DNA of 64,000 nt from Bacteroidales bacterium UBA4070. GTDB lineage: Bacteria; Bacteroidota; Bacteroidia; Bacteroidales; VadinHA17. Positions 429-10,136 of the stretch are shown here, piece after piece (the stretch's first letter is position 1; each line of letters opens with the position of its first letter). The notes below the pieces were generated by a model. That model was not told the DNA's origin and made no database searches. It saw only the letters and a program-made list of their open reading frames with translations. Made by a program: the position numbers and the translations under genes. The DNA lies in the NCBI GenBank assembly GCA_002383485.1, contig DFYY01000022.1, positions 91,575-155,574 of the forward strand, read 5' to 3'.

Positions 429-2677
429 CTGCTTTAAGGGCAATTTTCATTACACTTTCACTGTTGCTGACCCTCCATGGTTCACAGGCACAGTCCGTTG
501 TGAGGGGAAGGGTGACTGACGTTCAGGCAGGCGAAACACTTGCCGGAGTCTACGTCATATGGGGCAAGAGTAACGGAATAAGCACTGCCGCCGATGGCTT
601 TTACTCCTTCACTGCCGGTTCAGGGCCACTCACCGTTGAATTCAGGTTTATAGGCTACAGGACGAGGACTGAAACCCTTCGCCTTGGCGCCCGTGATACA
701 GTGGTTCTGGATATTGCCCTTGAACCTGAGTCGCAGTTCCTGGACCAGGTGGTAGTCAGTGCCGACCGCATGGAACAGAAGCGTTCCGACCTTACTGTCT
801 CAATGGATGTAATCCGTTCAGAGCAGATCTTCCGGGCTCATATTACCGATGCGCAGGAGCTGATCACAAAAACACCCGGGATCGAGGTCCTTGACGGGCA
901 GGCATCTATCAGGGGAGGGAGCGGGTTCAGCTACGGTGCAGGCAGCAGGGTGCTTGCACTCATTGACGGACTGCCGATGATGTCAGCGGATGCAGGCAAC
1001 GTAAAATGGAACTTCCTCCCGCTGGAGAATCTCTCACAGGTCGAGATCATAAAAGGGGCCTCATCGGTTCTTTATGGGTCATCAGCTCTTAACGGTGTTG
1101 TCAACTTAAGGACGGCTGACGCCTCCAATATTCCCGTAACAACATTTTTTGTCGAAACCGGTTTGTACGGCAATCCTCCGAACAGTGACTGGAAGTGGTG
1201 GGACACGCCAAGGCTCTCAGGCAATGCCTCCTTTTCGCACCTGCAAAAGATAAAAAATACAGATATGGGTCTTGGCCTGAGTCTCTCATCTGACGCAGGT
1301 TACCGGAAGTATAATGATGAGTCGCTGGGAAGGATCAGTCTCAGGCTGAAACATCACAGCAGCAGGGTTGAGGGTTTGAAATACGGCCTGAACATAGCAG
1401 GAGGCAAGAGTTACAAAACCGACTTTGTGCTATGGGAAGACGCGCTGGACGGAGGGTTGAAGCAGGATACATCTACGGTTTCGAGGCTTCACGGTTATTA
1501 TTTTTCTGCTGATCCGTATTTATCATTCGGCAGGCGGGGAAAGGTTAAGCATGACATAAGAATGAGGCTTCAGTCATCCGAGAACCGGTTTCCGGTCAGG
1601 ACTGCAAACAATTCAGGCACACTTTCACTTTACGGAGAATACCAGTTCTGGTACGGCTTTTCCGAGCATCTGAGCATGACGGCAGGATTGGCGCAGACAA
1701 CGGGTCTCATCCGGTCCAACTTTTACGGTGATCACCGGGGGCTGAACATGGCAGGCTTCGCGCAGGCAGAACTGAGGTTATTCAGTCGCCTGAAGGTCAC
1801 CGGAGGAATCAGGGTTGAGCAGAACATTCTGGACGGTGAGCGTGACAGGGTTGTACCTGTATTCCGCACAGGACTGAATTTCGAGGCAGCAAGGCATACA
1901 TTCCTGAGGGCCTCTTTCGGACAGGGTTACCGCTATCCATCTGTTGCAGAGAAGCATGCCTCCACTACCCTGGGTTCGATAAGGATTTTTCCCAGTCCCT
2001 CTGTGAAGCCTGAGTCAGGATGGAGCACTGAAGCAGGGGTTATGCAGGCTTTCATGCTTGGCCGGATACGGGGTGAGGGCGATCTGTCACTGTTCCTTTC
2101 GCAGAACAGGGATATGATAGAATATATTTTCGGGGTGCACCAGGATCCCGGGACCGGCACTTCAGGACTGGGGTTCAAGGCAATAAATGTTGAGCAGTCA
2201 AGGATATGGGGCGCTGAGCTTGAACTGCATATGAGCCGGCCGGTTGGAAAGATGACAGCCTTATTAACCGGAGGATATACCTTTATACGCCCGATGGAGA
2301 TCAATGCTTACACAGGCAGAAGTACCGGTGTTTTCCTGAAGTACCGGAGATCACACAATGCGAAGTTTGGCCTTCTGGCTACAGGAAACCGTGTTGAAGC
2401 CGGACTGGATATCTTTATGAGGTCACGGACTCTTAATATTGATGATGTATTTCTGAATCCGGCGACACGGGAGTCGATTTTACCCGGCTTCTATGATTAC
2501 TGGCAGGATCACAACCGTGGCTATCTTCTGATGGACGGGAATATCGGGTTCAGGGTGAGCCGGGCGCTGAAGGTTTCTCTCGCCGTAAGGAATCTGACCA
2601 ATACCGAATACATGGGCCGTCCCGGCGATATCCAGCCTCACCGTAATTTCAGTCTGCGGTTGAGCGGGAGATTCTGA
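425..2677 (+). CDS. TonB-dependent outer-membrane receptor (CarboxypepD_reg-like N-domain, plug, barrel)
   Basis: 750 aa with a signal peptide. VRGRVTD..GETLAGVYV is a carboxypeptidase-regulatory-like segment. Plug-type motifs are IEVLDGQASIRGGSG and VEIIKGASSVLYGSSALNGVVNL. The protein ends in a C-terminal Phe. Confidence 0.85.
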   Translation: MTALRAIFITLSLLLTLHGSQAQSVVRGRVTDVQAGETLAGVYVIWGKSNGISTAADGFYSFTAGSGPLTVEFRFIGYRTRTETLRLGARDTVVLDIALEPESQFLDQVVVSADRMEQKRSDLTVSMDVIRSEQIFRAHITDAQELITKTPGIEVLDGQASIRGGSGFSYGAGSRVLALIDGLPMMSADAGNVKWNFLPLENLSQVEIIKGASSVLYGSSALNGVVNLRTADASNIPVTTFFVETGLYGNPPNSDWKWWDTPRLSGNASFSHLQKIKNTDMGLGLSLSSDAGYRKYNDESLGRISLRLKHHSSRVEGLKYGLNIAGGKSYKTDFVLWEDALDGGLKQDTSTVSRLHGYYFSADPYLSFGRRGKVKHDIRMRLQSSENRFPVRTANNSGTLSLYGEYQFWYGFSEHLSMTAGLAQTTGLIRSNFYGDHRGLNMAGFAQAELRLFSRLKVTGGIRVEQNILDGERDRVVPVFRTGLNFEAARHTFLRASFGQGYRYPSVAEKHASTTLGSIRIFPSPSVKPESGWSTEAGVMQAFMLGRIRGEGDLSLFLSQNRDMIEYIFGVHQDPGTGTSGLGFKAINVEQSRIWGAELELHMSRPVGKMTALLTGGYTFIRPMEINAYTGRSTGVFLKYRRSHNAKFGLLATGNRVEAGLDIFMRSRTLNIDDVFLNPATRESILPGFYDYWQDHNRGYLLMDGNIGFRVSRALKVSLAVRNLTNTEYMGRPGDIQPHRNFSLRLSGRF

Positions 2678-2700
2678 GGCTTTTTATCTACTTTTACCTT

Positions 2701-3207
2701 ATGTTCCGCTCCGGGCTTATAATTTCTGTTCTCATTACCCTGATGATGCCGCCGTTTTTGCAGCAGCTTGACGGACAGGATAACGCCAGGCTGACGAATC
2801 TGAAGCAGACTGACGTGCAGGACACGATCGTGCCAACTGCATCATGCCGTGACAGTGGTGGTGAGATAATTGATGAGGATCCGCCGGTTCCATGTCGAAC
2901 GATAATAAGGAAGGATGCCTGTGGCACTATCGATATTGGCAACAACCTGAACTGGTTGAATACGCTGATTGTCACCTCCTACAGTGATCAGTCGGGAATT
3001 TACAGGGGTAAGATATGGGTGTCAAACTACAGAGGTATTGACTACATTGTAACGGACATGCCGCTTATCGCCGGGTATACAGGATATCATGTTTTTCAGT
3101 GTGACGGGTCTGAGACCGTTATTAACGACAATGCGTATTTTGCTTCGCTTAAAAACAGTTATCTGATCTGGATGAGTTATTGTCCTCAACCAGGGACTAC
3201 GGACTGA
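2701..3207 (+). CDS. hypothetical secreted Cys-containing protein
   Basis: 168-aa ORF with an N-terminal hydrophobic segment. I recognise no family. Confidence 0.4.
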   Translation: MFRSGLIISVLITLMMPPFLQQLDGQDNARLTNLKQTDVQDTIVPTASCRDSGGEIIDEDPPVPCRTIIRKDACGTIDIGNNLNWLNTLIVTSYSDQSGIYRGKIWVSNYRGIDYIVTDMPLIAGYTGYHVFQCDGSETVINDNAYFASLKNSYLIWMSYCPQPGTTD

Positions 3208-3670
3208 TGTGGCTTTAGCCTCACAATATAATGATAGTCAGAAATGTATAACGAAAATAACGGGATTTTCTTCCTCGCCGTATGGCGCCTCGGCCGGACT
3301 CTTTCATCCTGAGTTTACCTTTGCAAATGAATCAGAAATGCTGCTACTCGCAGCATTCACCTTATTTTGATCCATTCGCTCCTGATCTTTGCAGGTCATT
3401 GCTCCTGTTCAAGGATTAAAATGTATAGATGAGTGATGGTGGAATTTTGCCCGGGGATACAGACTAAGACATAAGTCAATGGTTTTGCTGTCAACTGCTT
3501 AGATCATATTATCAAGATCAACCCTGAAGTCGTTATCATCAATATAAAGCGGCCTTGCTTGTCTGATCAGGACTTGAGCTTAGTAAATTTTTCATTAAAT
3601 GATCACTAAATGATACTTTGGTGAAATATTTACTTTTGTGGAAAGATAAATGGTTTTGATAAAAAAAATG

Positions 3671-3745
3671 TTATATATATGATTTTATGCAATAAGTCCA
3701 GAATATAACTATATTTATGCAATTAAATATAGTTTTATGCAGAAT
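3671..3745 (+). repeat. upstream copy of the fic-flanking direct-repeat module (three TTTATGCA boxes)
   Basis: TTTATGCA boxes end at 3691, 3721 and 3741 (spacing 30 and 20 bp), preceded by TATATAT. The module matches 5292-5366 at a constant offset of 1621 bp. Confidence 0.7.
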
Positions 3746-3772
3746 GGTTTAAATTAATGAAGTATTTGGCAT

Positions 3773-5275
3773 ATGTCTGAAAAACCAATTGGAAGTACCT
3801 GGCTAAAACAGCACTATCAACTTTCAAATATTAAATTATCTCATGAATCTTATCTTGGTACAAGATCAAAAGTTGAAATACTGCAGGATGGGACAATTAT
3901 TGACACCTACCAAAAGGCGCAATATAGTCTTAAAGTAGATACTCCGTTAAGCCATTTTGAGTTTGCTCTTAAATATGATGACGTCCAGATGAGCTTTTAT
4001 CAGGCTGTCTTAAAATCTATTCCTGAAACAGATATAGTTGAGTATATTAAATCTGCACCAGGCTCTAAATATTCCAGGAAGATTGGATTTTGGTATGAAT
4101 TTTTAACTGGAGAGCAGCTACCCATTGAAGACAGGCCAAAAATCAACTATATTGATTTAATAGACTCTAAAAGGTATTTTACAGGTTCGATTGTTAAGGA
4201 TACCCGGTGGCGCATAAACAAAAATTTATTGGGTGATGTTGGTTTTTGTCCTACTATTAAGAAAACGGATACTATATCAAAAGCACTTGAACATGATTTT
4301 TCTGAGTCTCTCTGGGAACTCACAAAAAACTATTCTCCTGAAATATTAGCAAGGGCCAATAATTATTTATACAAAAAGGAAACACGTTCATCGTACCAAA
4401 TTGAAAAAGAAGAACCAACACCAGAGCGTATTGAAAGATTTGTTAGTTTATTGAGTAATGCCGGTAAAAAAAATATTAGAGACCTTCTTAGTGAGGAATC
4501 TCTTGTATCTCTACAGAATCAGATTGTCGATCCACGTTTTGCAGCTACAGGTTTCCGGGATTTTCAAAATTATATTGGCCAGACAACATTGAATTATGAT
4601 GAAATAATTCATTACATATGTCCATCACCGGAATTTATTCCGGAGTTAATGAAAGATCTTTCAACTACTGCAATTAATATGGAAGGTGTAAATCCAATTG
4701 TAAAGGCAACTGCTGTAGCTTTTGGATTCGTATTTATACACCCATTTGAAGATGGAAATGGAAGAATTCATAGATTTTTAATTCATGATCTTTTGTCAAG
4801 GGATAATTTCTTACCCACTGGGATGATTATCCCAGTTTCAGCCCATATGGTAAATAATTTGAAACTATACGATGAAGCTCTGGAAGCATATTCTAAACCA
4901 CTTATGCAAATAATTAAATACACAAAAGATAATAAACAAAAATTAAACGTCTTAAATGCTTCCGAAGTTGAAGGATATTATAAGTTCCCAGATCTCACAG
5001 CGCAAACTGAATATTTATGTACAGTAATTGAAACAGCTATCTCCCGGGATCTTCCAAACGAATTAAATTTCCTTCAAAACTATGATGAAGCCAAGGAGTT
5101 AATGAAGCAGAGGATAGATATGCCAGATAAGCTAATAGATTCATTTATCCGATTTACTCATCAGAATAATGGAGTCTTTCCAAAAAGGAGAAGAAGCACC
5201 TTCCATATGCTAAATGATGATGAAATTGAAGCGCTTCAGTCTATTTTCAAGGCTGTCTTTACTTCAGGTAAATAA
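3773..5275 (+). CDS. Fic family protein (AMPylase-type Fic domain)
   Basis: 500 aa with the canonical Fic motif HPFEDGNGRIHR (nt 4739-4774). An upstream inhibitory-helix-like segment, ETRSSYQIEKE, lies at nt 4380-4412. The gene sits in a visibly AT-rich segment. Confidence 0.9.
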   Translation: MSEKPIGSTWLKQHYQLSNIKLSHESYLGTRSKVEILQDGTIIDTYQKAQYSLKVDTPLSHFEFALKYDDVQMSFYQAVLKSIPETDIVEYIKSAPGSKYSRKIGFWYEFLTGEQLPIEDRPKINYIDLIDSKRYFTGSIVKDTRWRINKNLLGDVGFCPTIKKTDTISKALEHDFSESLWELTKNYSPEILARANNYLYKKETRSSYQIEKEEPTPERIERFVSLLSNAGKKNIRDLLSEESLVSLQNQIVDPRFAATGFRDFQNYIGQTTLNYDEIIHYICPSPEFIPELMKDLSTTAINMEGVNPIVKATAVAFGFVFIHPFEDGNGRIHRFLIHDLLSRDNFLPTGMIIPVSAHMVNNLKLYDEALEAYSKPLMQIIKYTKDNKQKLNVLNASEVEGYYKFPDLTAQTEYLCTVIETAISRDLPNELNFLQNYDEAKELMKQRIDMPDKLIDSFIRFTHQNNGVFPKRRRSTFHMLNDDEIEALQSIFKAVFTSGK

Positions 5276-5291
5276 TCAGGGAAGATTATAG

Positions 5292-5366
5292 GTATATATT
5301 TAATTTTATGCTGTGGCCCCTTAAAATATCTAATTTTATGCATTAATATTTGTTTTTATGCAAGAG
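5292..5366 (+). repeat. downstream copy of the fic-flanking direct-repeat module
   Basis: TTTATGCT/TTTATGCA/TTTATGCA boxes end at 5312, 5342 and 5362. The 30/20-bp spacing and orientation match the upstream copy. Confidence 0.7.
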
Positions 5367-5436
5367 CCTCAATAAGTCTGTTTCAGATCTGGCTGTGACT
5401 AATTTTTAATATTTTTATATCAAAACCTGGCATTAT

Positions 5437-5463
5437 GAAAAAAGCCACTGAGTTACAGTGGCT
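5437..5463 (-). terminator. hairpin terminator downstream of tRNA-Asp
   Basis: AGCCACTG-agtta-CAGTGGCT is an 8-bp stem (5443-5463). On the minus strand it is followed by a T-run, 16 nt after the tRNA 3' end. Confidence 0.6.
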
Positions 5464-5478
5464 TATATTTTTCTTTTG

Positions 5479-5553
5479 CGGTGCGGACGGGACTCGAACC
5501 CGCGACCCTCGGCGTGACAGGCCGATATTCTAACCAAACTGAACTACCGCACC
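5479..5553 (-). tRNA. tRNA-Asp (anticodon GTC)
   Basis: The reverse complement reads GGTGCGGTAGTTCAGTTTGGTTAGAATATCGGCCTGTCACGCCGAGGGTCGCGGGTTCGAGTCCCGTCCGCACCG. It folds as a cloverleaf: acceptor GGTGCGG/CCGCACC, anticodon loop CTGTCAC, T-loop TTCGAGT. CCA is not encoded. Confidence 0.9.
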
Positions 5554-5729
5554 AAAAGCGATGCAAAATTAATCCAATTTTCCATTCCTCAAAATATTTT
5601 GTTCAAATATATTCCAGTCCGCTCCGGACCATGGTAATACAGCCGTAAAACTGCATCTCCGCGAAGGATTCATATCCGAAATCAAATGCTATTTCATCAG
5701 GTTTATTATATTTGTTTTTAAGCTTGATT

Positions 5730-6794
5730 ATGAAGAATATCTACCTGCAACTGGCAGAATATGAAACCGCAGCAAACGGACTAGTCCTGGCCACAGTAGT
5801 TGCTGCCAGCGGCTCTACACCACAGAAACCGGGAAGCTCCGCCCTTTTTCTCAATGGAAGACTTATTGCCGGTACTATTGGCGGCGGAATAGTCGAAAAT
5901 AAAGTCTCCCTCTATGCTGCCAAATGTGTTGAAGCAAGGGAATCGGCACTGCTCCGGTTCAATCTCGACCTGGATACTGATGATCCGGAAGAGGCAGTAT
6001 GTGGAGGTACATTGTCCATACTTGTTGACAGTGATCCGCTCCGGAGCAGCCAGGTGTTCCGTGAAATGGCAGAGAGTCTGCGTGCATCACGGCCAGGTGT
6101 TCTCGTTACAAGGGTGGTGCCCTGGAATGATTCAACTATCCTGATCAGCAGATGCTGGGCAACTACGGAGTGTGAACCACATGTCCCGGGCAATGACGAC
6201 GACATGATCGCCACAGAGGTAATACAGATGCTCTCGGACGGAGTCCGCGCAGGGTACCACATGCTTGAGATGACAATTCCCGGAGAACAGCACCCCGCAA
6301 CAGTATTCCTTGAACCGGTCTTTCCGCCGCAGCGACTGATCATTGCCGGTGCCGGGCATGTAGGCAGGGCTGTGGCACGCCAGGGCCGCATTCTGGGATT
6401 CGAAGTGACTGTAATTGATGACAGGCATGAATACGCGAACAGCCAGAATCTTCCCGATGCGGACAATATTATCGTTCGCGATATCGGAGAAGCAATGAGG
6501 GAGACGCCAAAGGACTCCGGCACATACATTGTAATCGTGACCCGTGGCCACAGTCATGATGCCGAGGCACTCAGACCCTGCATTGGTTCGGAAGCAGCTT
6601 ATGTAGGAATGATGGGCAGCAAGGTCAAGGTGGCAAAGATGCATGAGGATTTCATCCTGAAAGGCTGGGCAACAGAAGAGCAGTGGGAGCGGATATATAC
6701 GCCGATCGGAATCGATATCGGATCTCAGACAGTGGAGGAGATTGCTGTCAGTATTGCTGCGCAATTGATAATTAAAAGAGGCAACAGGCAGTAG
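5730..6794 (+). CDS. xdhC: XdhC/CoxI family molybdenum-hydroxylase maturation protein
   Basis: The N-terminal XdhC_CoxI-like segment is ATVVAASGSTPQKPGS..GTIGGG. The C-terminal Rossmann-like segment is IIAGAGHVGRAVARQGRILGFEVTVIDDR. I prefer the ATG at 5730 (MKNIYLQ) over the upstream TTG at 5712. Confidence 0.8.
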   Translation: MKNIYLQLAEYETAANGLVLATVVAASGSTPQKPGSSALFLNGRLIAGTIGGGIVENKVSLYAAKCVEARESALLRFNLDLDTDDPEEAVCGGTLSILVDSDPLRSSQVFREMAESLRASRPGVLVTRVVPWNDSTILISRCWATTECEPHVPGNDDDMIATEVIQMLSDGVRAGYHMLEMTIPGEQHPATVFLEPVFPPQRLIIAGAGHVGRAVARQGRILGFEVTVIDDRHEYANSQNLPDADNIIVRDIGEAMRETPKDSGTYIVIVTRGHSHDAEALRPCIGSEAAYVGMMGSKVKVAKMHEDFILKGWATEEQWERIYTPIGIDIGSQTVEEIAVSIAAQLIIKRGNRQ

Positions 6795-6861
6795 AGGGCC
6801 GGGCGTATAGTCCCGACATTGTCTGTCGGGATAGCGAAGGTGCCAGTTTGCAGGGAAGGAG
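6786..6861 (+). repeat. interspersed stop-codon-bearing hairpin element, copy A
   Basis: AGGCAGTAGAGGGCCGGGCGTAT, then hairpin TCCCGAC-attgtct-GTCGGGA (6811-6831), then AGCGAAGGTGCCAGTTTGCAGGGAAGG. Both flanks match copy B at 18416-18487. Confidence 0.65.
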
Positions 6862-6901
6862 TGGGTTTGAGTCAAAAGATTGAAATTAGTCAGGTTATAA
6901 G

Positions 6902-7498
6902 ATGACGCGGATATGGGCCATAGTGTTAGCGGCGGGAGAGTCCAGGAGAATGGGCTCACCGAAAATGCTGCTCCCATACAATGATGTGACAGTGATTGAG
7001 CAGGTTATCCTGAATCTCCTGGATTCTGACATTGACAGGGTGGTGGTTGTGCTTGGAGCCGGCCGGGAGGAGATTATGTCAGTGACGCGCAGGTATGACG
7101 TATTTCACTGCTATAATGAAGATTACAAGTTAGGGATGCTCTCCTCGGTCAAATGCGGCTTCTACTCACTTCCCCGGGGCTGCATCGGTGCACTAATCAT
7201 GCCTGGTGATCAGCCAATGACAGGGCCAGGAGAGATAAACCGCGTTATCCGTACTTTTCTGGAGAGCTGCAAGGGGCTGGTAATGGCGGCACACAATGGC
7301 AAGAGGGGACATCCCCTGATCGTGGACATGAAATATGCGGATGAGGTATTGAATCTCCCGGAGGGTGAAGGATTGAGGGTGCTGGCTGTAAGGCATCCGG
7401 AGGATGTGCTGGAGTCTGATACTGATGATTCGTCTGTGCTGAGAGATATTGACACGCTGGAAGACTATATGAATGAAATTAGTAAAACAAGAGAATGA
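6902..7498 (+). CDS. MobA/MocA-like nucleotidyltransferase (molybdenum cofactor cytidylyltransferase type)
   Basis: The N-terminus WAIVLAAGESRRMGSPKMLLPY is typical of the NTP_transf_3 family. The stop overlaps the next start (ATGA at 7495-7498). Confidence 0.75.
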   Translation: MTRIWAIVLAAGESRRMGSPKMLLPYNDVTVIEQVILNLLDSDIDRVVVVLGAGREEIMSVTRRYDVFHCYNEDYKLGMLSSVKCGFYSLPRGCIGALIMPGDQPMTGPGEINRVIRTFLESCKGLVMAAHNGKRGHPLIVDMKYADEVLNLPEGEGLRVLAVRHPEDVLESDTDDSSVLRDIDTLEDYMNEISKTRE

Positions 7499-7980
7499 TG
7501 GAAGAGACAATCCGGTTCAAGCTTAACGGCAATGAGACGGAGCTGGTTACTGATCCGAACCAGATCCTGCTCTGGGTCCTGAGAAATCATTTTGGCCTTA
7601 CCGGCACCAAATACGGTTGCGGCATAGGCTTCTGTGGCGCCTGCACCGTGCTGATAGACGGAGAGCCGGCCAGATCATGCATGATTCCTGTGAGTGATGT
7701 CGCAGGCAGGAGCGTGGTTACCATAGAGGGTCTGGAGGATGGTGGTGAGCTTCATCCTGTCCAGAAGGCCTTCATTGATCATGATGCCCTCCAATGTGGT
7801 TTCTGCACCCCGGGCATGGTGCTTACTGCGGTGGGGATGCTTGAGAAAAATCCTTCCCCGACACGCGAAGAGATAGTCGCCGGACTGGAAGAAAACCTAT
7901 GCCGGTGCGGGGCTCACAAACGTATTATCGAAGCTGTTGAAGATGCTGCCAGAATAAAAAGGGGAGGGAATGTAAAATGA
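7495..7980 (+). CDS. (2Fe-2S)-binding small subunit of a xanthine dehydrogenase/aldehyde oxidase-family enzyme (IorA-like)
   Basis: Two Cys clusters are present, CGIGFCGACTV and CGFCTPGM..CRCG. The ORF is translationally coupled on both sides. Confidence 0.85.
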   Translation: MMEETIRFKLNGNETELVTDPNQILLWVLRNHFGLTGTKYGCGIGFCGACTVLIDGEPARSCMIPVSDVAGRSVVTIEGLEDGGELHPVQKAFIDHDALQCGFCTPGMVLTAVGMLEKNPSPTREEIVAGLEENLCRCGAHKRIIEAVEDAARIKRGGNVK

Positions 7981-10136
7981 AGAGCATGACTGACAACCAA
8001 AACAGGACCGCACCCCGTCCGGGAATAAAGAGAAGAAGCTTCATCAAGGCACTGGGGGGAGGCATCGTCCTCTTCTTTGCTCCATGGAACGCAATTGATC
8101 TTATGGCGCTGCCTGCACCTCAGCGCCGGAGTCTGACGAAGGACTACAACGCCTTCCTTCATATTGCAACTGACGGTACGGTGAGTTGCTACACGGGAAA
8201 GATAGAGATGGGGCAGGGGATTATCACATCGCTGGCCCAGATGATGGCAGAGGAGCTTAATGTGCCGCTGGCGAAGGTCAAGATGGTGATGGGTGACACG
8301 GATCTGTGCCCCTGGGATGCAGGCACCTGGGGTTCTCTCACCACCAGGGCTTTCGGTCCGGCCATGAGGGCAGCTGCCGCTGAGACAAGGATGGTACTCG
8401 TGCAGATGGCTTCGGAAAAACTGGGAGTCGTGCCTGAAAGACTCGAGGTGACTGACGGTGAGGTATCTGTTTTGGGCGATCCTGCGGTACGCGTTTCCTA
8501 TGCCGAGCTGGCACAGGGAAAGAAAATGGAGAGGTATCTCGAGATAAAGCCTGCTCCGGAAGATTATACAAAGTACACACTGGTAGGCAAGCCGCTTAAG
8601 CACAGCGATGCATATGAGAAGGTTACTGGCAGGGCGAAGTATACCGGTGACCTGAGATTGCCCGGAATGCTTCATGCCCGGATATTGCGGCCCCCGTCAC
8701 ACGGAGCAAAGCTGGTGACGGCAGATCTTTCAGCTGCCGAAGCCATGGAAGGGGTCAGCGTTGTGCGTGAAGGCGATTTCATTGCGGTGCTGAGTGAAAA
8801 CCGTGATCTGGCGGATATCGCTATTGTCAGGATTAGCGCTGAATATTCATCTGATGAGCTTAATGTAGACAACTCTACTGTATTTGATCACATAAACAGG
8901 GGAGAGTACAGGCCCAACGTCGTGCGCAACGACGGAGATGTGGAGCTTGCAGCACCGCAGTGCGGAAGTCTGTTTGAGCACGAGTATCATGACCCCTATC
9001 TTGCGCATGCACCGATAGAGACACACACTGCTCTCGCAAACTTCGAGGATGGGAAGGTGACGGTCTGGGCCTCTACTCAGTCGCCTTTCGGCTTGCAGGA
9101 TACAATTGTCATGGAATTGGGTATGAGCCTTGAGACAGTGAGGGTGATCACTCCGTTTGTTGGCGGCGGTTTCGGAGGAAAGAGTCCGTCGCAGCAGGGT
9201 GTGGAGGCTGCGAGGCTGGCACGTTTGACCGGTAAGCCTGTGATGGTAGCCTGGACACGTGAGGAGGAGTTCTTCTATGATGCATTTCACCCCGCTTCTG
9301 TGGTAAAGGTAAAATCGGGCACAGACAGTGAAGGGAAGATAATGATGTGGGACTATAACGTCTACCTGGCCGGCACCCGCGGTGCTGATGTGATATATGA
9401 TGTCCCCAACGCCAGGGTCACGAGCCACAGCGAGGACAGGTCAAAGTACAGGGTTCATCCCTTCGCCACCGGTGCATGGCGTGCCCCGAACAACAACACG
9501 AACACCTTCGCCAGGGAGACGCAGATTGATATTATGGCCGCAGCAGCCGGGACTGATCCACTGGAATTCAGGCTCAGGAACCTGAAGGATGAGAAGATGA
9601 AAGGGGTCCTCAGGGCGGTAGCTGACAAATTCGGGTATGAACCGGGAAAGACGCCCTCAGGCAGGGGCATTGGCATAGCATGCGGTACCGATGCCGGCAC
9701 CTGGGTGGCATTCATGGCAGAGGTATCCGTTGACAGGACGACTGGCGCAGTAAGAATTGTCCGCCTCGCATGCGCACAGGATATGGGTCTGTGTGTCAAT
9801 CCGCAGGGAGCACTGCTCCAGATGGAGAGTTGCCTGACGATGGGCATGGGTTATACTCTGACAGAAGAGGTGAAGTATGTTGGCGGCGATGTGAAAGACA
9901 GGAACTTTGACAATTATTCCATTCCGAAGTTTTCATGGCTCCCGAAACTTGAATGTGTCATAATGGACAGGCCTGACCAGCCTTCGCAGGGAGGAGGAGA
10001 ACCTGCGATTATCGGAGTGGGAGCGGCGGTAGGCAATGCCATCTTTGATGGCACCGGCGCAAGGCTTTTCAGAGTGCCTTTTACACCGGAGAGGGTGATG
10101 GAGGCCATGGAAAAGTCGGAAGGTCGGAAGGTCTGA
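7977..10136 (+). CDS. molybdopterin-binding large subunit (IorB-like) with a Tat-type signal
   Basis: 719 aa. The N-terminal twin-arginine motif is KRRSFIKALGGG. GQG-type Moco-binding segments are present (KIEMGQGIITS). Its start overlaps the 2Fe-2S subunit stop. Confidence 0.8.
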   Translation: MKSMTDNQNRTAPRPGIKRRSFIKALGGGIVLFFAPWNAIDLMALPAPQRRSLTKDYNAFLHIATDGTVSCYTGKIEMGQGIITSLAQMMAEELNVPLAKVKMVMGDTDLCPWDAGTWGSLTTRAFGPAMRAAAAETRMVLVQMASEKLGVVPERLEVTDGEVSVLGDPAVRVSYAELAQGKKMERYLEIKPAPEDYTKYTLVGKPLKHSDAYEKVTGRAKYTGDLRLPGMLHARILRPPSHGAKLVTADLSAAEAMEGVSVVREGDFIAVLSENRDLADIAIVRISAEYSSDELNVDNSTVFDHINRGEYRPNVVRNDGDVELAAPQCGSLFEHEYHDPYLAHAPIETHTALANFEDGKVTVWASTQSPFGLQDTIVMELGMSLETVRVITPFVGGGFGGKSPSQQGVEAARLARLTGKPVMVAWTREEEFFYDAFHPASVVKVKSGTDSEGKIMMWDYNVYLAGTRGADVIYDVPNARVTSHSEDRSKYRVHPFATGAWRAPNNNTNTFARETQIDIMAAAAGTDPLEFRLRNLKDEKMKGVLRAVADKFGYEPGKTPSGRGIGIACGTDAGTWVAFMAEVSVDRTTGAVRIVRLACAQDMGLCVNPQGALLQMESCLTMGMGYTLTEEVKYVGGDVKDRNFDNYSIPKFSWLPKLECVIMDRPDQPSQGGGEPAIIGVGAAVGNAIFDGTGARLFRVPFTPERVMEAMEKSEGRKV

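What the first reader, a model, noticed from the sequence alone, without database searches (positions are those of the whole stretch)
3671..5366. fic gene bracketed by two direct-repeat modules, each with three TTTATGCA boxes at the same 30/20-bp phasing
- **Box positions:** upstream of fic, TTTATGCA ends at 3691, 3721 and 3741. Downstream, TTTATGC(T/A) ends at 5312, 5342 and 5362.
- **Match:** orientation, order and centre-to-centre spacing (30 then 20 bp, whole helical turns) are the same in both sets, at a constant offset of 1621 bp.
- **Alignment:** my ungapped hand alignment of 3671-3745 with 5292-5366 is about two thirds identical. The identity is concentrated in the boxes and in a TATATAT tract before box 1.
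- **Interpretation:** helically phased triplets of a short box look like cooperative protein-binding sites (operator, iteron-like or recombinase arm-type sites). Bracketing one gene with them suggests a discrete cassette, or the remnant of a tandem cassette array whose next member was lost.
- **Novelty:** I do not recognise the motif.
Basis: seen in the sequence. Interest (0 to 1): 0.6.

Follow-up and report, generated by a model that had tools for sequence, protein, structure and literature searches.

The report
Phased operator arrays bracketing a Fic gene
The two repeat modules around this fic gene are real and conserved, and the upstream one is the local form of a phased direct-repeat array found before almost every member of a large, unstudied family of 500-residue Fic enzymes, whose box sequence changes with the protein, most likely because the enzyme binds its own DNA.

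Summary
Two 70-nt modules lie at 3672-3741 and 5293-5362, 71% identical and 1621 bp apart. Each has three TTTATGC(A/T) boxes at 30 and 20 bp, and they flank a 500-aa Fic ORF (3773-5275).

- **Conservation:** both modules are conserved in orthologous cassettes that sit in many different Bacteroidales contexts.
- **Family-wide array:** in 68 relatives down to 42% identity, and on proteobacterial plasmids, the upstream region holds 3-11 direct box copies. Of 221 adjacent spacings, 161 are 19-21, 29-31 or 49-51 bp, against 6 of 93 in shuffles.
- **Co-variation:** each box has a T-rich 5' half and a 3' half that differs by protein subfamily (TTTTACAGTA, TTTTACTGCA, ATTTTACCC and others).

Best reading: the boxes are a cognate operator array, probably bound by the Fic protein itself. 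The binding domain is unidentified, and the N-terminal domain matches no solved fold.

The downstream module exists only in the TTTATGCA clade. It may be a distal operator for looping. One ortholog pair (L021 and L071) shows fic gain or loss with junctions in the modules.

In the window the cassette sits in a decayed islet at tRNA-Asp; related loci carry a resolvase pseudogene there. ArgR boxes share the 8-mer but fit poorly. Binding has not been tested.

The parts
3672..3741 (+). Module 1 (M1): TATAT tract plus three TTTATGCA boxes (3684-3691, 3714-3721, 3734-3741) at 30 and 20 bp. Box 3 ends 31 nt before the fic ATG. This is the proposed operator/promoter array of fic.
   Evidence: It is conserved in all 22 distinct orthologous loci. 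M1 copies from different loci are 90% identical on average.
3773..5275 (+). fic ORF, 500 aa. It has the Fic motif HPFEDGNGRIHR, an SSYQIEK stretch that resembles an inhibitory helix, an N-terminal domain (1-165) with no detectable relative among solved structures, and a C-terminal helical region with a basic FPKRRR patch.
   Evidence: More than 4,700 homologues have E<=1e-10. The N-terminal domain profile finds 1,241 clusters at 50% identity.
5293..5362 (+). Module 2 (M2): a second triplet (TTTATGCT 5305-5312, TTTATGCA 5335-5342 and 5355-5362) in the same orientation and phasing, starting 18 nt after the stop codon. It is specific to the TTTATGCA clade.
   Evidence: It is conserved as its own type: M2 copies from different loci are 86% identical, while M1 and M2 are 69% identical within a locus and 70% between loci. 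It is decayed in some loci and absent from other subfamilies.
3571..3671 (+). Conserved leader upstream of M1. In other loci it directly follows the stop codon of a resolvase pseudogene. It contains a 24-nt imperfect palindrome (3582-3605 / 3611-3634).
   Evidence: blastn homology to L001, L003 and L007 starts at 3571. The inverted repeat is I2. Resolvase remnants are shown.
5363..5385 (+). Short conserved right flank of the cassette (CAAGAGCCTC...). Homology to other loci fades here.
5442..5464 (.). Bidirectional terminator-like hairpin between M2 and the tRNA gene.
5478..5553 (-). tRNA-Asp (GTC). Its 3' end faces the AT-rich islet that carries the cassette.
   Evidence: The islet at about 3420-5470 has 26-36% GC against about 52% in the flanks. 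Related islets begin with a partial copy of the tRNA-Asp 3' end.
3262..3330 (+). Degenerate copy of a conserved chromosomal feature. In L003 and L071 this feature begins GGTGCGGACGGGATTGATCTCC, like the 3' end of tRNA-Asp. It marks the tRNA-Asp insertion hot spot.
   Evidence: alignment A6.

Best explanation
**What the modules are.** They are copies of an operator array typical of a large, uncharacterised family of about 500-aa Fic (AMP-transferase-type) proteins. Nearly every member carries 3-11 direct copies of a 9-10-bp box in the 100-280 bp before its start codon. The copies sit at alternating 30 and 20/21 bp, so all lie on one face of the helix. The 5' half of the box is T-rich and constant. 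The 3' half is specific to the protein subfamily.

**Who binds them.** The Fic ORF is the only gene that always travels with the boxes, and the box changes with it. The most likely binder is therefore the Fic protein itself, binding cooperatively as an oligomer and repressing or tuning its own promoter.
- Candidate specificity regions are the hypervariable three-strand stretch at residues 29-57 of the N-terminal domain and the basic region at 466-480.

**Module 2.** In the TTTATGCA clade, which includes this window, a second triplet lies directly after the stop codon. M1-fic-M2 moves as one unit of about 1.7 kb. M2 most plausibly serves as a distal operator that loops to M1, geometrically like lambda OL/OR around cI. 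As a side effect, the two direct repeats allow loss or gain of fic.

**Setting in the window.** The unit is cargo of a decayed AT-rich islet at the 3' end of tRNA-Asp. Related loci carry a truncated resolvase gene in that islet.

**Shown:** conservation, phasing, co-variation, unit boundaries and one presence/absence polymorphism.

**Inferred:** protein binding, the identity of the binder, repression and looping.
For: **Conservation**
- Both modules are conserved in orthologous cassettes that lie in unrelated gene contexts.
- M1 copies are 90% identical across loci and M2 copies 86%. Fic DNA in the same comparisons is 79-93% identical.

**Family-wide phasing**
- I analysed 68 metagenomic relatives with 42-86% identity to the family member P0107.
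- 64 of them have at least 3 copies of one 9-mer upstream, and 43 have at least 4. Shuffled sequences never exceed 3.
- Of 221 adjacent spacings, 73 are 19-21 bp, 64 are 29-31 bp and 24 are 49-51 bp. The shuffles give 3, 3 and 0 of 93. Real downstream DNA gives 6, 4 and 2 of 89.
- L152 has 11 boxes spaced 30, 20, 30, 19, 30, 20 and so on.
- The same triplets occur before family members on plasmids of Rhodovastum, Rhizobium and Sulfitobacter, and box pairs 30 bp apart in Pantoea.

**Co-variation**
- The box is TTTATGCA in the window clade and in its 60-70% relatives.
- It is TTTTACCGTA, TTTTACWGT or TTTTACAGTA in another clade. Other groups have TTTTACTGCA, TTATTGCA, ATTTTACCC, TTTTGTWGCA or TTTTTCCATAG.
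- Protein stretches that are conserved within a box group but differ between groups cluster at residues 29-57 and 466-480.

**Precedent**
- Other Fic proteins bind DNA. CccR represses its own promoter (PMC9755527). CbFic2 activity is switched by DNA binding (PMC10628234). CbFic2 (8CIL) is the best structural match of the full-length model.

**Cassette behaviour**
- Homology between contexts runs from 3571, 3633 or 3668-3675 to 5355-5366.
- L071 equals L021 minus fic and one module, with the junction at or near box 3.
Against: - No binding experiment exists.
- No known DNA-binding fold or Pfam domain was found in the protein. The N-terminal domain model has pLDDT 87 but its best Foldseek E-value against the PDB is 0.41. 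Pfam finds nothing outside the Fic core.
- Co-variation with the protein is confounded with host phylogeny, so a host factor whose specificity drifts is not excluded. I found no genome with two paralogues carrying different boxes.
- The constant half of the box is a T-tract. T-tracts phased at multiples of 10 bp also give intrinsically curved DNA.
- M2 is decayed in several loci (L019, L060, L021 box 2, L045 box 3), so it is dispensable for fic.
- Nothing tested here shows looping.
- The Bacteroidota promoter of fic was not located.
- A Deinococcus relative showed no array.
Confidence: 0.55

Rival explanations
1. The modules are recombination sites, res-like or arm-type, for the small serine recombinase encoded next to the cassette. 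Two sites in direct repeat would let the recombinase excise or capture fic as a circular cassette.
For: - A resolvase-type gene (PF00239) lies directly upstream of M1 in L023, upstream of hipBA and a solo module in L091, and as remnants in L001, L003, L007, L049, L128 and L130. In the window only its conserved 3' flank is left.
- Each module has three subsites in direct orientation, as resolution would require.
- L021 and L071 differ by fic plus one module.
- Solo modules occur in L049, L071 and L091.
Against: - The same 30/20 array, with other boxes, occurs before family members that have no resolvase nearby. Resolvase remnants are found only in the TTTATGCA clade.
- Every resolvase copy seen lacks the N-terminal catalytic region. 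The Pfam match starts at model position 55, and L023 has an in-frame stop.
- Both modules stay conserved where no resolvase remnant exists (L004, L009, L021, L045).
- By established knowledge, res subsites are inverted repeats bound by dimers. These boxes are single and direct.
- M1 and M2 show no sequence homogenisation.
Confidence: 0.1
2. The boxes are ARG-box half-sites. The arginine repressor ArgR binds both modules, so fic would belong to the arginine regulon.
For: - The genome-wide scan for the triple pattern returned about 35 Clostridia loci. In those inspected the pattern lies 80-160 nt upstream of argG or argC.
- One Bacteroidaceae locus (L028) has it 38 nt upstream of argR, and a Prevotella locus (L067) has it at an ArgR-like ORF identified by eye.
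- Tandem ARG boxes are typically about 21 bp apart (established knowledge).
Against: - Real ARG boxes in those loci carry a left half-site (TGAAT, TGTAT or TGCAT) four bases before ATGCA. The Fic modules have TWTGW there, which is out of register (reading).
- Other Fic subfamilies keep the architecture with boxes unrelated to ARG boxes, such as TTTTACAGTA and ATTTTACCC.
- All boxes are direct repeats, not palindromes.
- No arg gene is linked to the cassette.
Confidence: 0.05
3. The arrays are not sites for a cassette-encoded protein. They are phased T-tracts that form curved promoter-upstream DNA or bind a host nucleoid or regulatory protein. Box differences would then reflect host lineage. 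M2 would be a functionless relic of an old duplication.
For: - The constant part of every box is a run of 4-5 T, and spacings are multiples of about 10 bp.
- No DNA-binding fold was detected in Fic.
- M2 decays in several loci.
- Subfamilies and host taxa are confounded.
Against: - Within each locus the variable 3' half of the box is copied faithfully 3-11 times, which curvature alone does not require.
- The arrays are tied to this one gene family across phyla and on plasmids.
- M2 keeps its own conserved type, including inter-box positions, at 86% identity across contexts.
Confidence: 0.17
4. M1-fic-M2 is a circularly permuted form of the usual six-box upstream array. A circular fic cassette carrying two adjacent triplets would have opened or integrated between them, leaving one triplet on each side of the gene.
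For: - Many subfamilies have two triplets upstream, about 43-51 bp apart.
- The conserved right flank after M2 is about 16-22 nt and the conserved left flank before M1 box 1 is about 19-25 nt. Together they would put M2 box 3 roughly 50 bp before M1 box 1 in a circle (reading; approximate).
- The unit is found in many contexts with boundaries at the outer edges of the modules.
Against: - The boundaries are not sharp.
- No circular form, integrase or target-site signature was seen.
- The L071 solo module is not what precise excision of such a circle would leave.
- The cassette is absent from viral contigs.
Confidence: 0.08

Closest known systems
CccR of Yersinia pseudotuberculosis and CbFic2 of Coxiella burnetii (Fic enzymes with a C-terminal winged HTH)
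   Same: These Fic-domain proteins bind DNA. CccR represses its own promoter (PMC9755527). DNA binding switches CbFic2 between AMPylation and deAMPylation (PMC10628234). CbFic2 (8CIL) is the best structural match of the full-length model.
   Different: - Those proteins are about 380 aa, with a DUF4172 N-terminus and a DeoR-type wHTH. This protein is 500 aa and has neither Pfam domain.
- Its N-terminal domain has no detectable relative among solved structures.
- The CccR operator is one inverted 10-bp repeat with a 26-bp spacer. Here there are 3-11 direct repeats at 30/20 bp, plus a second set after the gene.
Lambda OL/OR tripartite operators flanking cI
   Same: Two sets of three operator sites lie on either side of the regulator's own gene, 1.6 kb apart here and 2.4 kb in lambda. 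In lambda they cooperate by looping (established knowledge).
   Different: - Lambda sites are 17-bp palindromes 23-24 bp apart and serve divergent promoters. Here the boxes are direct repeats at 30 and 20 bp.
- The regulator here would be an enzyme.
- Looping is untested.
Direct-repeat arrays bound cooperatively by small DNA-binding proteins (ParR-parC centromeres, plasmid iterons)
   Same: Multiple direct repeats are phased on one DNA face, their sequence co-evolves with the cognate protein, and they overlap a promoter to give autoregulation (established knowledge).
   Different: - No partition ATPase or rep gene is present.
- The period alternates between 30 and 20 bp instead of being uniform.
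- The associated protein is a Fic enzyme.
ARG boxes (ArgR operators) of Clostridia and Bacteroidaceae
   Same: They share the 8-mer TTTATGCA and can occur three times at similar spacing.
   Different: ARG boxes are palindromic and sit before arg genes. The left half-site is missing in the Fic modules, and sister subfamilies use unrelated boxes.
res sites of Tn3/gamma-delta-type resolvases
   Same: Each site has three subsites, two sites in direct repeat flank a segment, and a resolvase gene lies next door.
   Different: The subsites are not inverted repeats, all resolvase copies are truncated, and the architecture exists without any resolvase in other subfamilies.

Membership tests
Fic/DOC (Fido) enzymes, PF02661 | Fic core with the motif HxFx(D/E)GNGRxxR | tested here: met
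   PF02661 has E=3.4e-14 at residues 239-341. HPFEDGNGRIHR is read in the translation, and most of its residues are invariant across the family. Foldseek matches solved Fic structures.
Class II Fic (intramolecular inhibitory helix) | (S/T)xxxE(G/N) helix N-terminal to the Fic core | tested here: inconclusive
   SSYQIEK at 206-212 lies in helix 205-211 of the model. S206, S207, I210 and E211 are invariant. The residue after Glu is Lys, not Gly or Asn.
Fic-wHTH autoregulators (CccR, SoFic, CbFic2 type) | DUF4172 N-terminal domain and C-terminal winged HTH | tested here: not met
   Pfam at E<=10 gives no DUF4172 and no HTH hit in residues 1-168 or 345-500. TM-scores to 8CIL and 3EQX are only 0.37-0.42 on the query.
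Fic-wHTH autoregulators (CccR, SoFic, CbFic2 type) | Palindromic operator in the gene's own promoter | tested here: not met
   The boxes are direct repeats. The CccR site is AGATAATCAT-N26-ATGATAATCT (PMC9755527).
ArgR operator (ARG box) | 18-bp imperfect palindrome with both half-sites | tested here: not met
   Only the right half (wwwwATGCA) is present. The left half reads TWTGW instead of TGNAT.
ArgR operator (ARG box) | Location before arginine metabolism genes | tested here: not met
   The cassette carries only fic, whereas the true hits precede argG, argC or argR.
Serine-resolvase res site | Adjacent intact resolvase, and subsites that are inverted repeats | tested here: not met
   All resolvase copies are truncated; the Pfam match covers model positions 55-141 of 145. 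The window keeps only the gene's 3' flank. The boxes are direct repeats.
Integron gene cassette (attC) | Imperfect inverted repeats forming a folded attC, with a tyrosine integrase and attI nearby | tested here: not met
   No such inverted repeat spans either module, and no integrase ORF is adjacent.
tRNA-targeted integrative island | Direct repeat of the tRNA 3' end at the far border of the island | tested here: inconclusive
   GCGGTGCGGACGGGACT is present at the island border in L023 and L091. In the window only a degenerate ACGGGATT at 3262 remains, and it belongs to an older feature.
Looping operator pairs (lambda OL/OR type) | Physical contact between the two operator sets through oligomers of the regulator | not testable with these tools
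   Only the geometry is seen: two triplets in the same orientation, 1619-1621 bp apart in four orthologues.

The most novel reading that the evidence does not exclude
The box arrays are a DNA partner that controls the enzyme, not merely an operator. Fic molecules would be held on 3-11 phased sites of their own locus, and on both flanks in this clade. While bound they would be kept inactive or in the deAMPylating state, as DNA binding does for CbFic2. Loss or dilution of the element, whether islet or plasmid, would free active Fic. The repeat array would then act as a DNA 'antitoxin' or addiction device, read by a new N-terminal DNA-reading domain whose hypervariable hairpin sets the box code.
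Probability: 0.1. Interest if true: 0.85.

Novelty: new variant of a known kind. Interest (0 to 1): 0.62.

Why it matters
- **A first functional handle.** Fic enzymes are widespread AMP-transferases, and the regulation of most is unknown. This is a very large family, with 1,241 clusters at 50% identity for the N-terminal domain alone. It occurs in environmental Bacteroidota and on plasmids of Pseudomonas aeruginosa, Pantoea and rhizobia.
- **A testable recognition code.** Each subfamily has its own box in a fixed 30/20-bp architecture. If the protein reads these boxes, the family offers a natural series of matched protein and DNA specificities carried by a domain of unknown fold.
- **A link between DNA binding and enzyme control.** It would connect DNA binding to control of a potentially toxic enzyme.
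- **A clean system for long-range operator cooperation.** The bracketed version in this window adds a second operator set 1.6 kb away.
- **Annotation value.** The arrays mark the true start and the regulatory region of these genes.

Tried and rejected
- **RNA element:** Rfam at a permissive threshold on window 2500-6500 and L003 found only the tRNA.
- **att repeat in the window:** I looked for a tRNA-derived direct repeat flanking the islet. None is clear, although related islets have one.
- **ArgR operators:** considered after the genome scan and rejected on half-site register and family-wide box variation.
- **Resolvase res sites:** rejected because the architecture exists without a resolvase.
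- **Tandem-array remnant:** the sequence after M2 box 3 shows no convincing similarity to the fic 5' region. No ORF starts at the matching distance.
- **Promoter scan:** the sigma-70 scan is uninformative for Bacteroidota. By eye, box 2 with its preceding CTA reads TAnnTTTA, a 7 of 8 match to the Bacteroidetes -7 element, but the -33 spacing is off. The promoter stays unassigned.
- **Specificity columns:** a strict filter gave no columns. A relaxed within-group versus between-group comparison points to residues 29-57 and 466-480, but phylogeny confounds it.
- **Mobile-element links:** the cassette is absent from viral contigs. No Fic remnant lies next to the Pseudomonas triple box.
- **Literature:** searches for ARG boxes in Bacteroides and for Fic with direct-repeat operators returned nothing.
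Full report
**1.

- TTTATGCA occurs five times in the 64-kb window. All five are on the + strand, at the stated positions, and inside the two modules. The sixth box is TTTATGCT at 5305-5312.
- The gapped triple pattern matches twice in the window and never in 100 shuffles.
- The modules, 3672-3741 and 5293-5362, form a 70-nt ungapped direct repeat. They are 71% identical and 1621 bp apart.
- They flank a 500-aa ORF (3773-5275) whose only Pfam domain is Fic/DOC at residues 239-341. The ORF has a canonical HPFEDGNGRIHR motif.

**2. Setting in the window**

- The cassette lies in an AT-rich islet at about 3420-5470. Its GC content is 26-36%, against about 52% in the flanks.
- The islet abuts the 3' end of tRNA-Asp(GTC) at 5478-5553 on the minus strand. 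A bidirectional terminator-like hairpin sits at 5442-5464.
- The 100 nt before module 1 (3571-3671) are homologous to a leader found in other loci. There the leader directly follows the stop codon of a small serine recombinase gene.
- That gene matches PF00239 only from model position 55 onward. It is truncated or interrupted in every copy seen: L091, L023, L007, L003, L001 and L049.
- In L023 and L091 the islet starts with a partial copy of the tRNA-Asp 3' end, GCGGTGCGGACGGGACT.
- The window therefore holds a decayed islet at a tRNA-Asp hot spot. An older tRNA-like relic survives at 3262-3330.

**3. The modules are conserved and the unit is discrete**

- Fic orthologues of 70-96% identity occur in many Bacteroidales MAGs beside unrelated neighbour genes.
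- Module 1 is present in all 22 distinct loci, including its inter-box sequence. Module 2 is present in most loci but decayed in some: L019, L060, box 2 of L021, box 3 of L045, and L012.
- blastn homology to the window begins at 3571, 3633 or 3668-3675, depending on the locus. It ends at 5355-5366 (5261 in the 70%-identical L009 and L010), with about 10-20 nt of weaker similarity beyond.
- M1 copies from different loci are 90% identical and M2 copies 86%. M1 against M2 is 69% within a locus and 70% between loci.
- The two modules are therefore old paralogous types. Each is conserved, and there is no gene conversion between them.

**4. Presence/absence polymorphism**

- L071 (a Rikenellaceae MAG) shares both flanks with L021.
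- L021 has M1-fic-M2. L071 has one hybrid module that is M1-like on the left and is followed by the right flank of M2. The junction is at or near box 3, TTTTATGCAAAA.
- Other solo modules occur after a resolvase remnant (L049) and directly after a hipBA pair in a sister islet (L091).
- This is only one clean event. It is compatible with deletion between direct repeats as well as with site-specific recombination.

**5. The decisive comparison: the array is a property of the whole protein family**

- *Distant relatives first sampled.* Relatives of 51-60% identity have their own box in several phased copies upstream and no downstream module. The boxes are TTTTACCGTA in L011 and L095, ATTTTACWGT in L094, TTTTTCCATAG in L093, and TTTATGCAA or TTTATACAA in L092.
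- *Metagenome scan.* A scan with a family alignment returned 80 loci at 42-86% identity to P0107. Of these, 68 could be analysed.
  - 64 have at least 3 copies of one 9-mer with at most one mismatch in the 280 nt before the ATG. 43 have at least 4. Shuffles never exceed 3.
  - Of 221 adjacent spacings, 73 are 19-21 bp, 64 are 29-31 bp and 24 are 49-51 bp. That is 161 of 221, against 6 of 93 in shuffles and 12 of 89 in real downstream DNA.
  - L152 has 11 boxes with a strict alternation of 30 and 20 bp.
- *Box structure.* Box consensuses share a T-run followed by a lineage-specific half. Related proteins have related boxes.
- *Downstream copies.* These occur only in the TTTATGCA clade.
- *Other phyla.* The family is also on plasmids of Pseudomonas (125 records), Rhizobium, Pantoea and others, at 30-36% identity over the full length. 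The 30/20 triplets are visible before the Rhodovastum, Rhizobium and Sulfitobacter genes, and box pairs 30 bp apart before the Pantoea gene.
- *Family size.* The N-terminal domain profile finds 1,241 clusters at 50% identity. The domain is always at the N-terminus of proteins of about 490-540 aa when they are complete.

**6. Mechanism**

- Spacings in multiples of about 10 bp argue for recognition of double-stranded DNA on one face, not of RNA.
- Faithful copying of a lineage-specific half-box within each locus argues for a sequence-specific protein, not curvature alone.
- The only gene that always accompanies the array and changes with it is fic. Binding and autoregulation by Fic itself is therefore the most economical reading.
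- There is precedent. CccR represses its own promoter (PMC9755527). CbFic2 is switched by DNA binding (PMC10628234) and is the best structural match of the full-length model.
- The architecture differs, however. There is no DUF4172 and no HTH by Pfam, and the repeats are direct rather than palindromic.
- The AlphaFold model of residues 1-165 is confident (pLDDT 87) but has no Foldseek match in the PDB (best E=0.41).
- The stretch at residues 29-57, which forms three beta strands, is conserved within box groups and different between them. So is the basic region at 466-480. These are candidates only.

**7. Module 2**

- Its own type is conserved across contexts, which argues for function. Its decay in some loci shows it is not needed for fic itself.
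- A distal operator that loops to M1 fits the geometry. The closest analogue is lambda OL/OR on either side of cI. This is inference.
- An alternative is circular permutation of the common six-box array. It is suggested by flank lengths that would place M2 about 50 bp before M1 in a circle. The boundaries are too soft to rely on.

**8. Rivals**

- *ArgR.* The genome scan for the triple pattern returned 78 stretches. About 30 are Fic cassettes. About 35 are Clostridia loci, and those inspected lie before argG or argC. Others lie before argR-like genes in Bacteroidaceae and Prevotella. TTTATGCA is thus half of an ARG box. The Fic modules lack the left half-site, however, and sister subfamilies use unrelated boxes.
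- *Resolvase res sites.* These fail because the architecture exists without any resolvase and all resolvase copies are defective.
- *Host factor or curved DNA.* This remains the main alternative (about 0.17).

**9. Verdict**

- The finding is real and non-random, and it opens onto a family-wide regulatory architecture.
- Two full-text searches of the held paper library found no report of it.
- I rate it as a new variant of a known kind: autoregulatory operator arrays and DNA-binding Fic proteins.
- The binder and the role of module 2 are still to be shown experimentally.

Noticed in passing
window 3420-5553: An AT-rich islet (26-36% GC against about 52%) is inserted next to the 3' end of tRNA-Asp(GTC). 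Sister islets (L023, L091) start with a 17-nt partial copy of the tRNA 3' end followed by a truncated small serine recombinase. Cargo differs between islets: fic in some, hipBA in L091.
   Followed up: partly
window 3262-3330; L003 5878-5960; L071 5196-5270; L049 1259-1330: A conserved element of about 60 nt begins like the 3' end of tRNA-Asp (GGTGCGGACGGGA) and continues TTGATCTCC...CCCTTTCATCCTGAGGTTACC. It lies about 190 nt from the real tRNA-Asp in several genomes. It may be a relic att site or a tRNA pseudogene. It has no Rfam match.
   Followed up: partly
window 3582-3634: A 24-nt imperfect palindrome (79% complementary, 5-nt gap) lies in the leader just after the resolvase stop codon of related loci. 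It is conserved in L003. It could be a terminator or a recombinase site.
   Followed up: no
L041 3058-3114 and L044 1519-1575 (Pseudomonas chromosomal contigs): Three copies of TCGTTTTTATGCA sit at exactly 30 and 20 bp, directly after a RES-Xre toxin-antitoxin pair, and are followed by a strong terminator about 40 nt later. No Fic gene or remnant is nearby. The architecture is the same as in the Fic arrays, but the partner is unknown.
   Followed up: partly
L014 6622-6676 (Parabacteroides distasonis An863): Three TTTATGC boxes at module-like spacing lie about 80 nt upstream of a small ORF, which is followed by a weak RelE-family toxin hit (PF06296, E=5.8e-5). No Fic gene is present.
   Followed up: no
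L091 797-902: The region between the resolvase remnant and hipB contains a TTTTACAA...TTGTAAAA palindrome, probably the HipB operator. The solo TTTATGCA module follows hipA at 2640-2710.
   Followed up: no
L015-L090 (about 35 Clostridia loci); L028; L067: Clostridial argG and argC promoters and a Bacteroidaceae argR promoter carry three TTTATGCA-containing ARG boxes at about 30 and 20 bp. This explains most non-Bacteroidales hits of the pattern scan.
   Followed up: partly
L023 60-230 (read on the minus strand): Five or six tandem copies of a unit of about 22 nt (ATCCGGACAGTGATTCCTG-like) lie downstream of module 2 in one cassette locus.
   Followed up: no
L003 6145-6265: A 60-nt segment containing a tRNA 5' fragment (GGCCGATATTCTAA...) is duplicated in tandem right after tRNA-Asp. 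This is further evidence of rearrangement at the hot spot.
   Followed up: no
L042 and L004/L005, upstream of module 1: Some cassettes have a fourth box 20 bp upstream of box 1 (TTTTTATGCA in L042, TTTTATGT in L004). In the window the matching position, about 3664-3671, is degenerate. The ancestral M1 may therefore have had two pairs of boxes spaced 20-30-20.
   Followed up: partly
window 5712-10136: Downstream of the tRNA lies an XdhC-type ORF (PF13478 and PF02625). By eye the following ORFs resemble a MobA-like nucleotidyltransferase and the small and large subunits of a molybdenum hydroxylase. They are unrelated to the finding.
   Followed up: no
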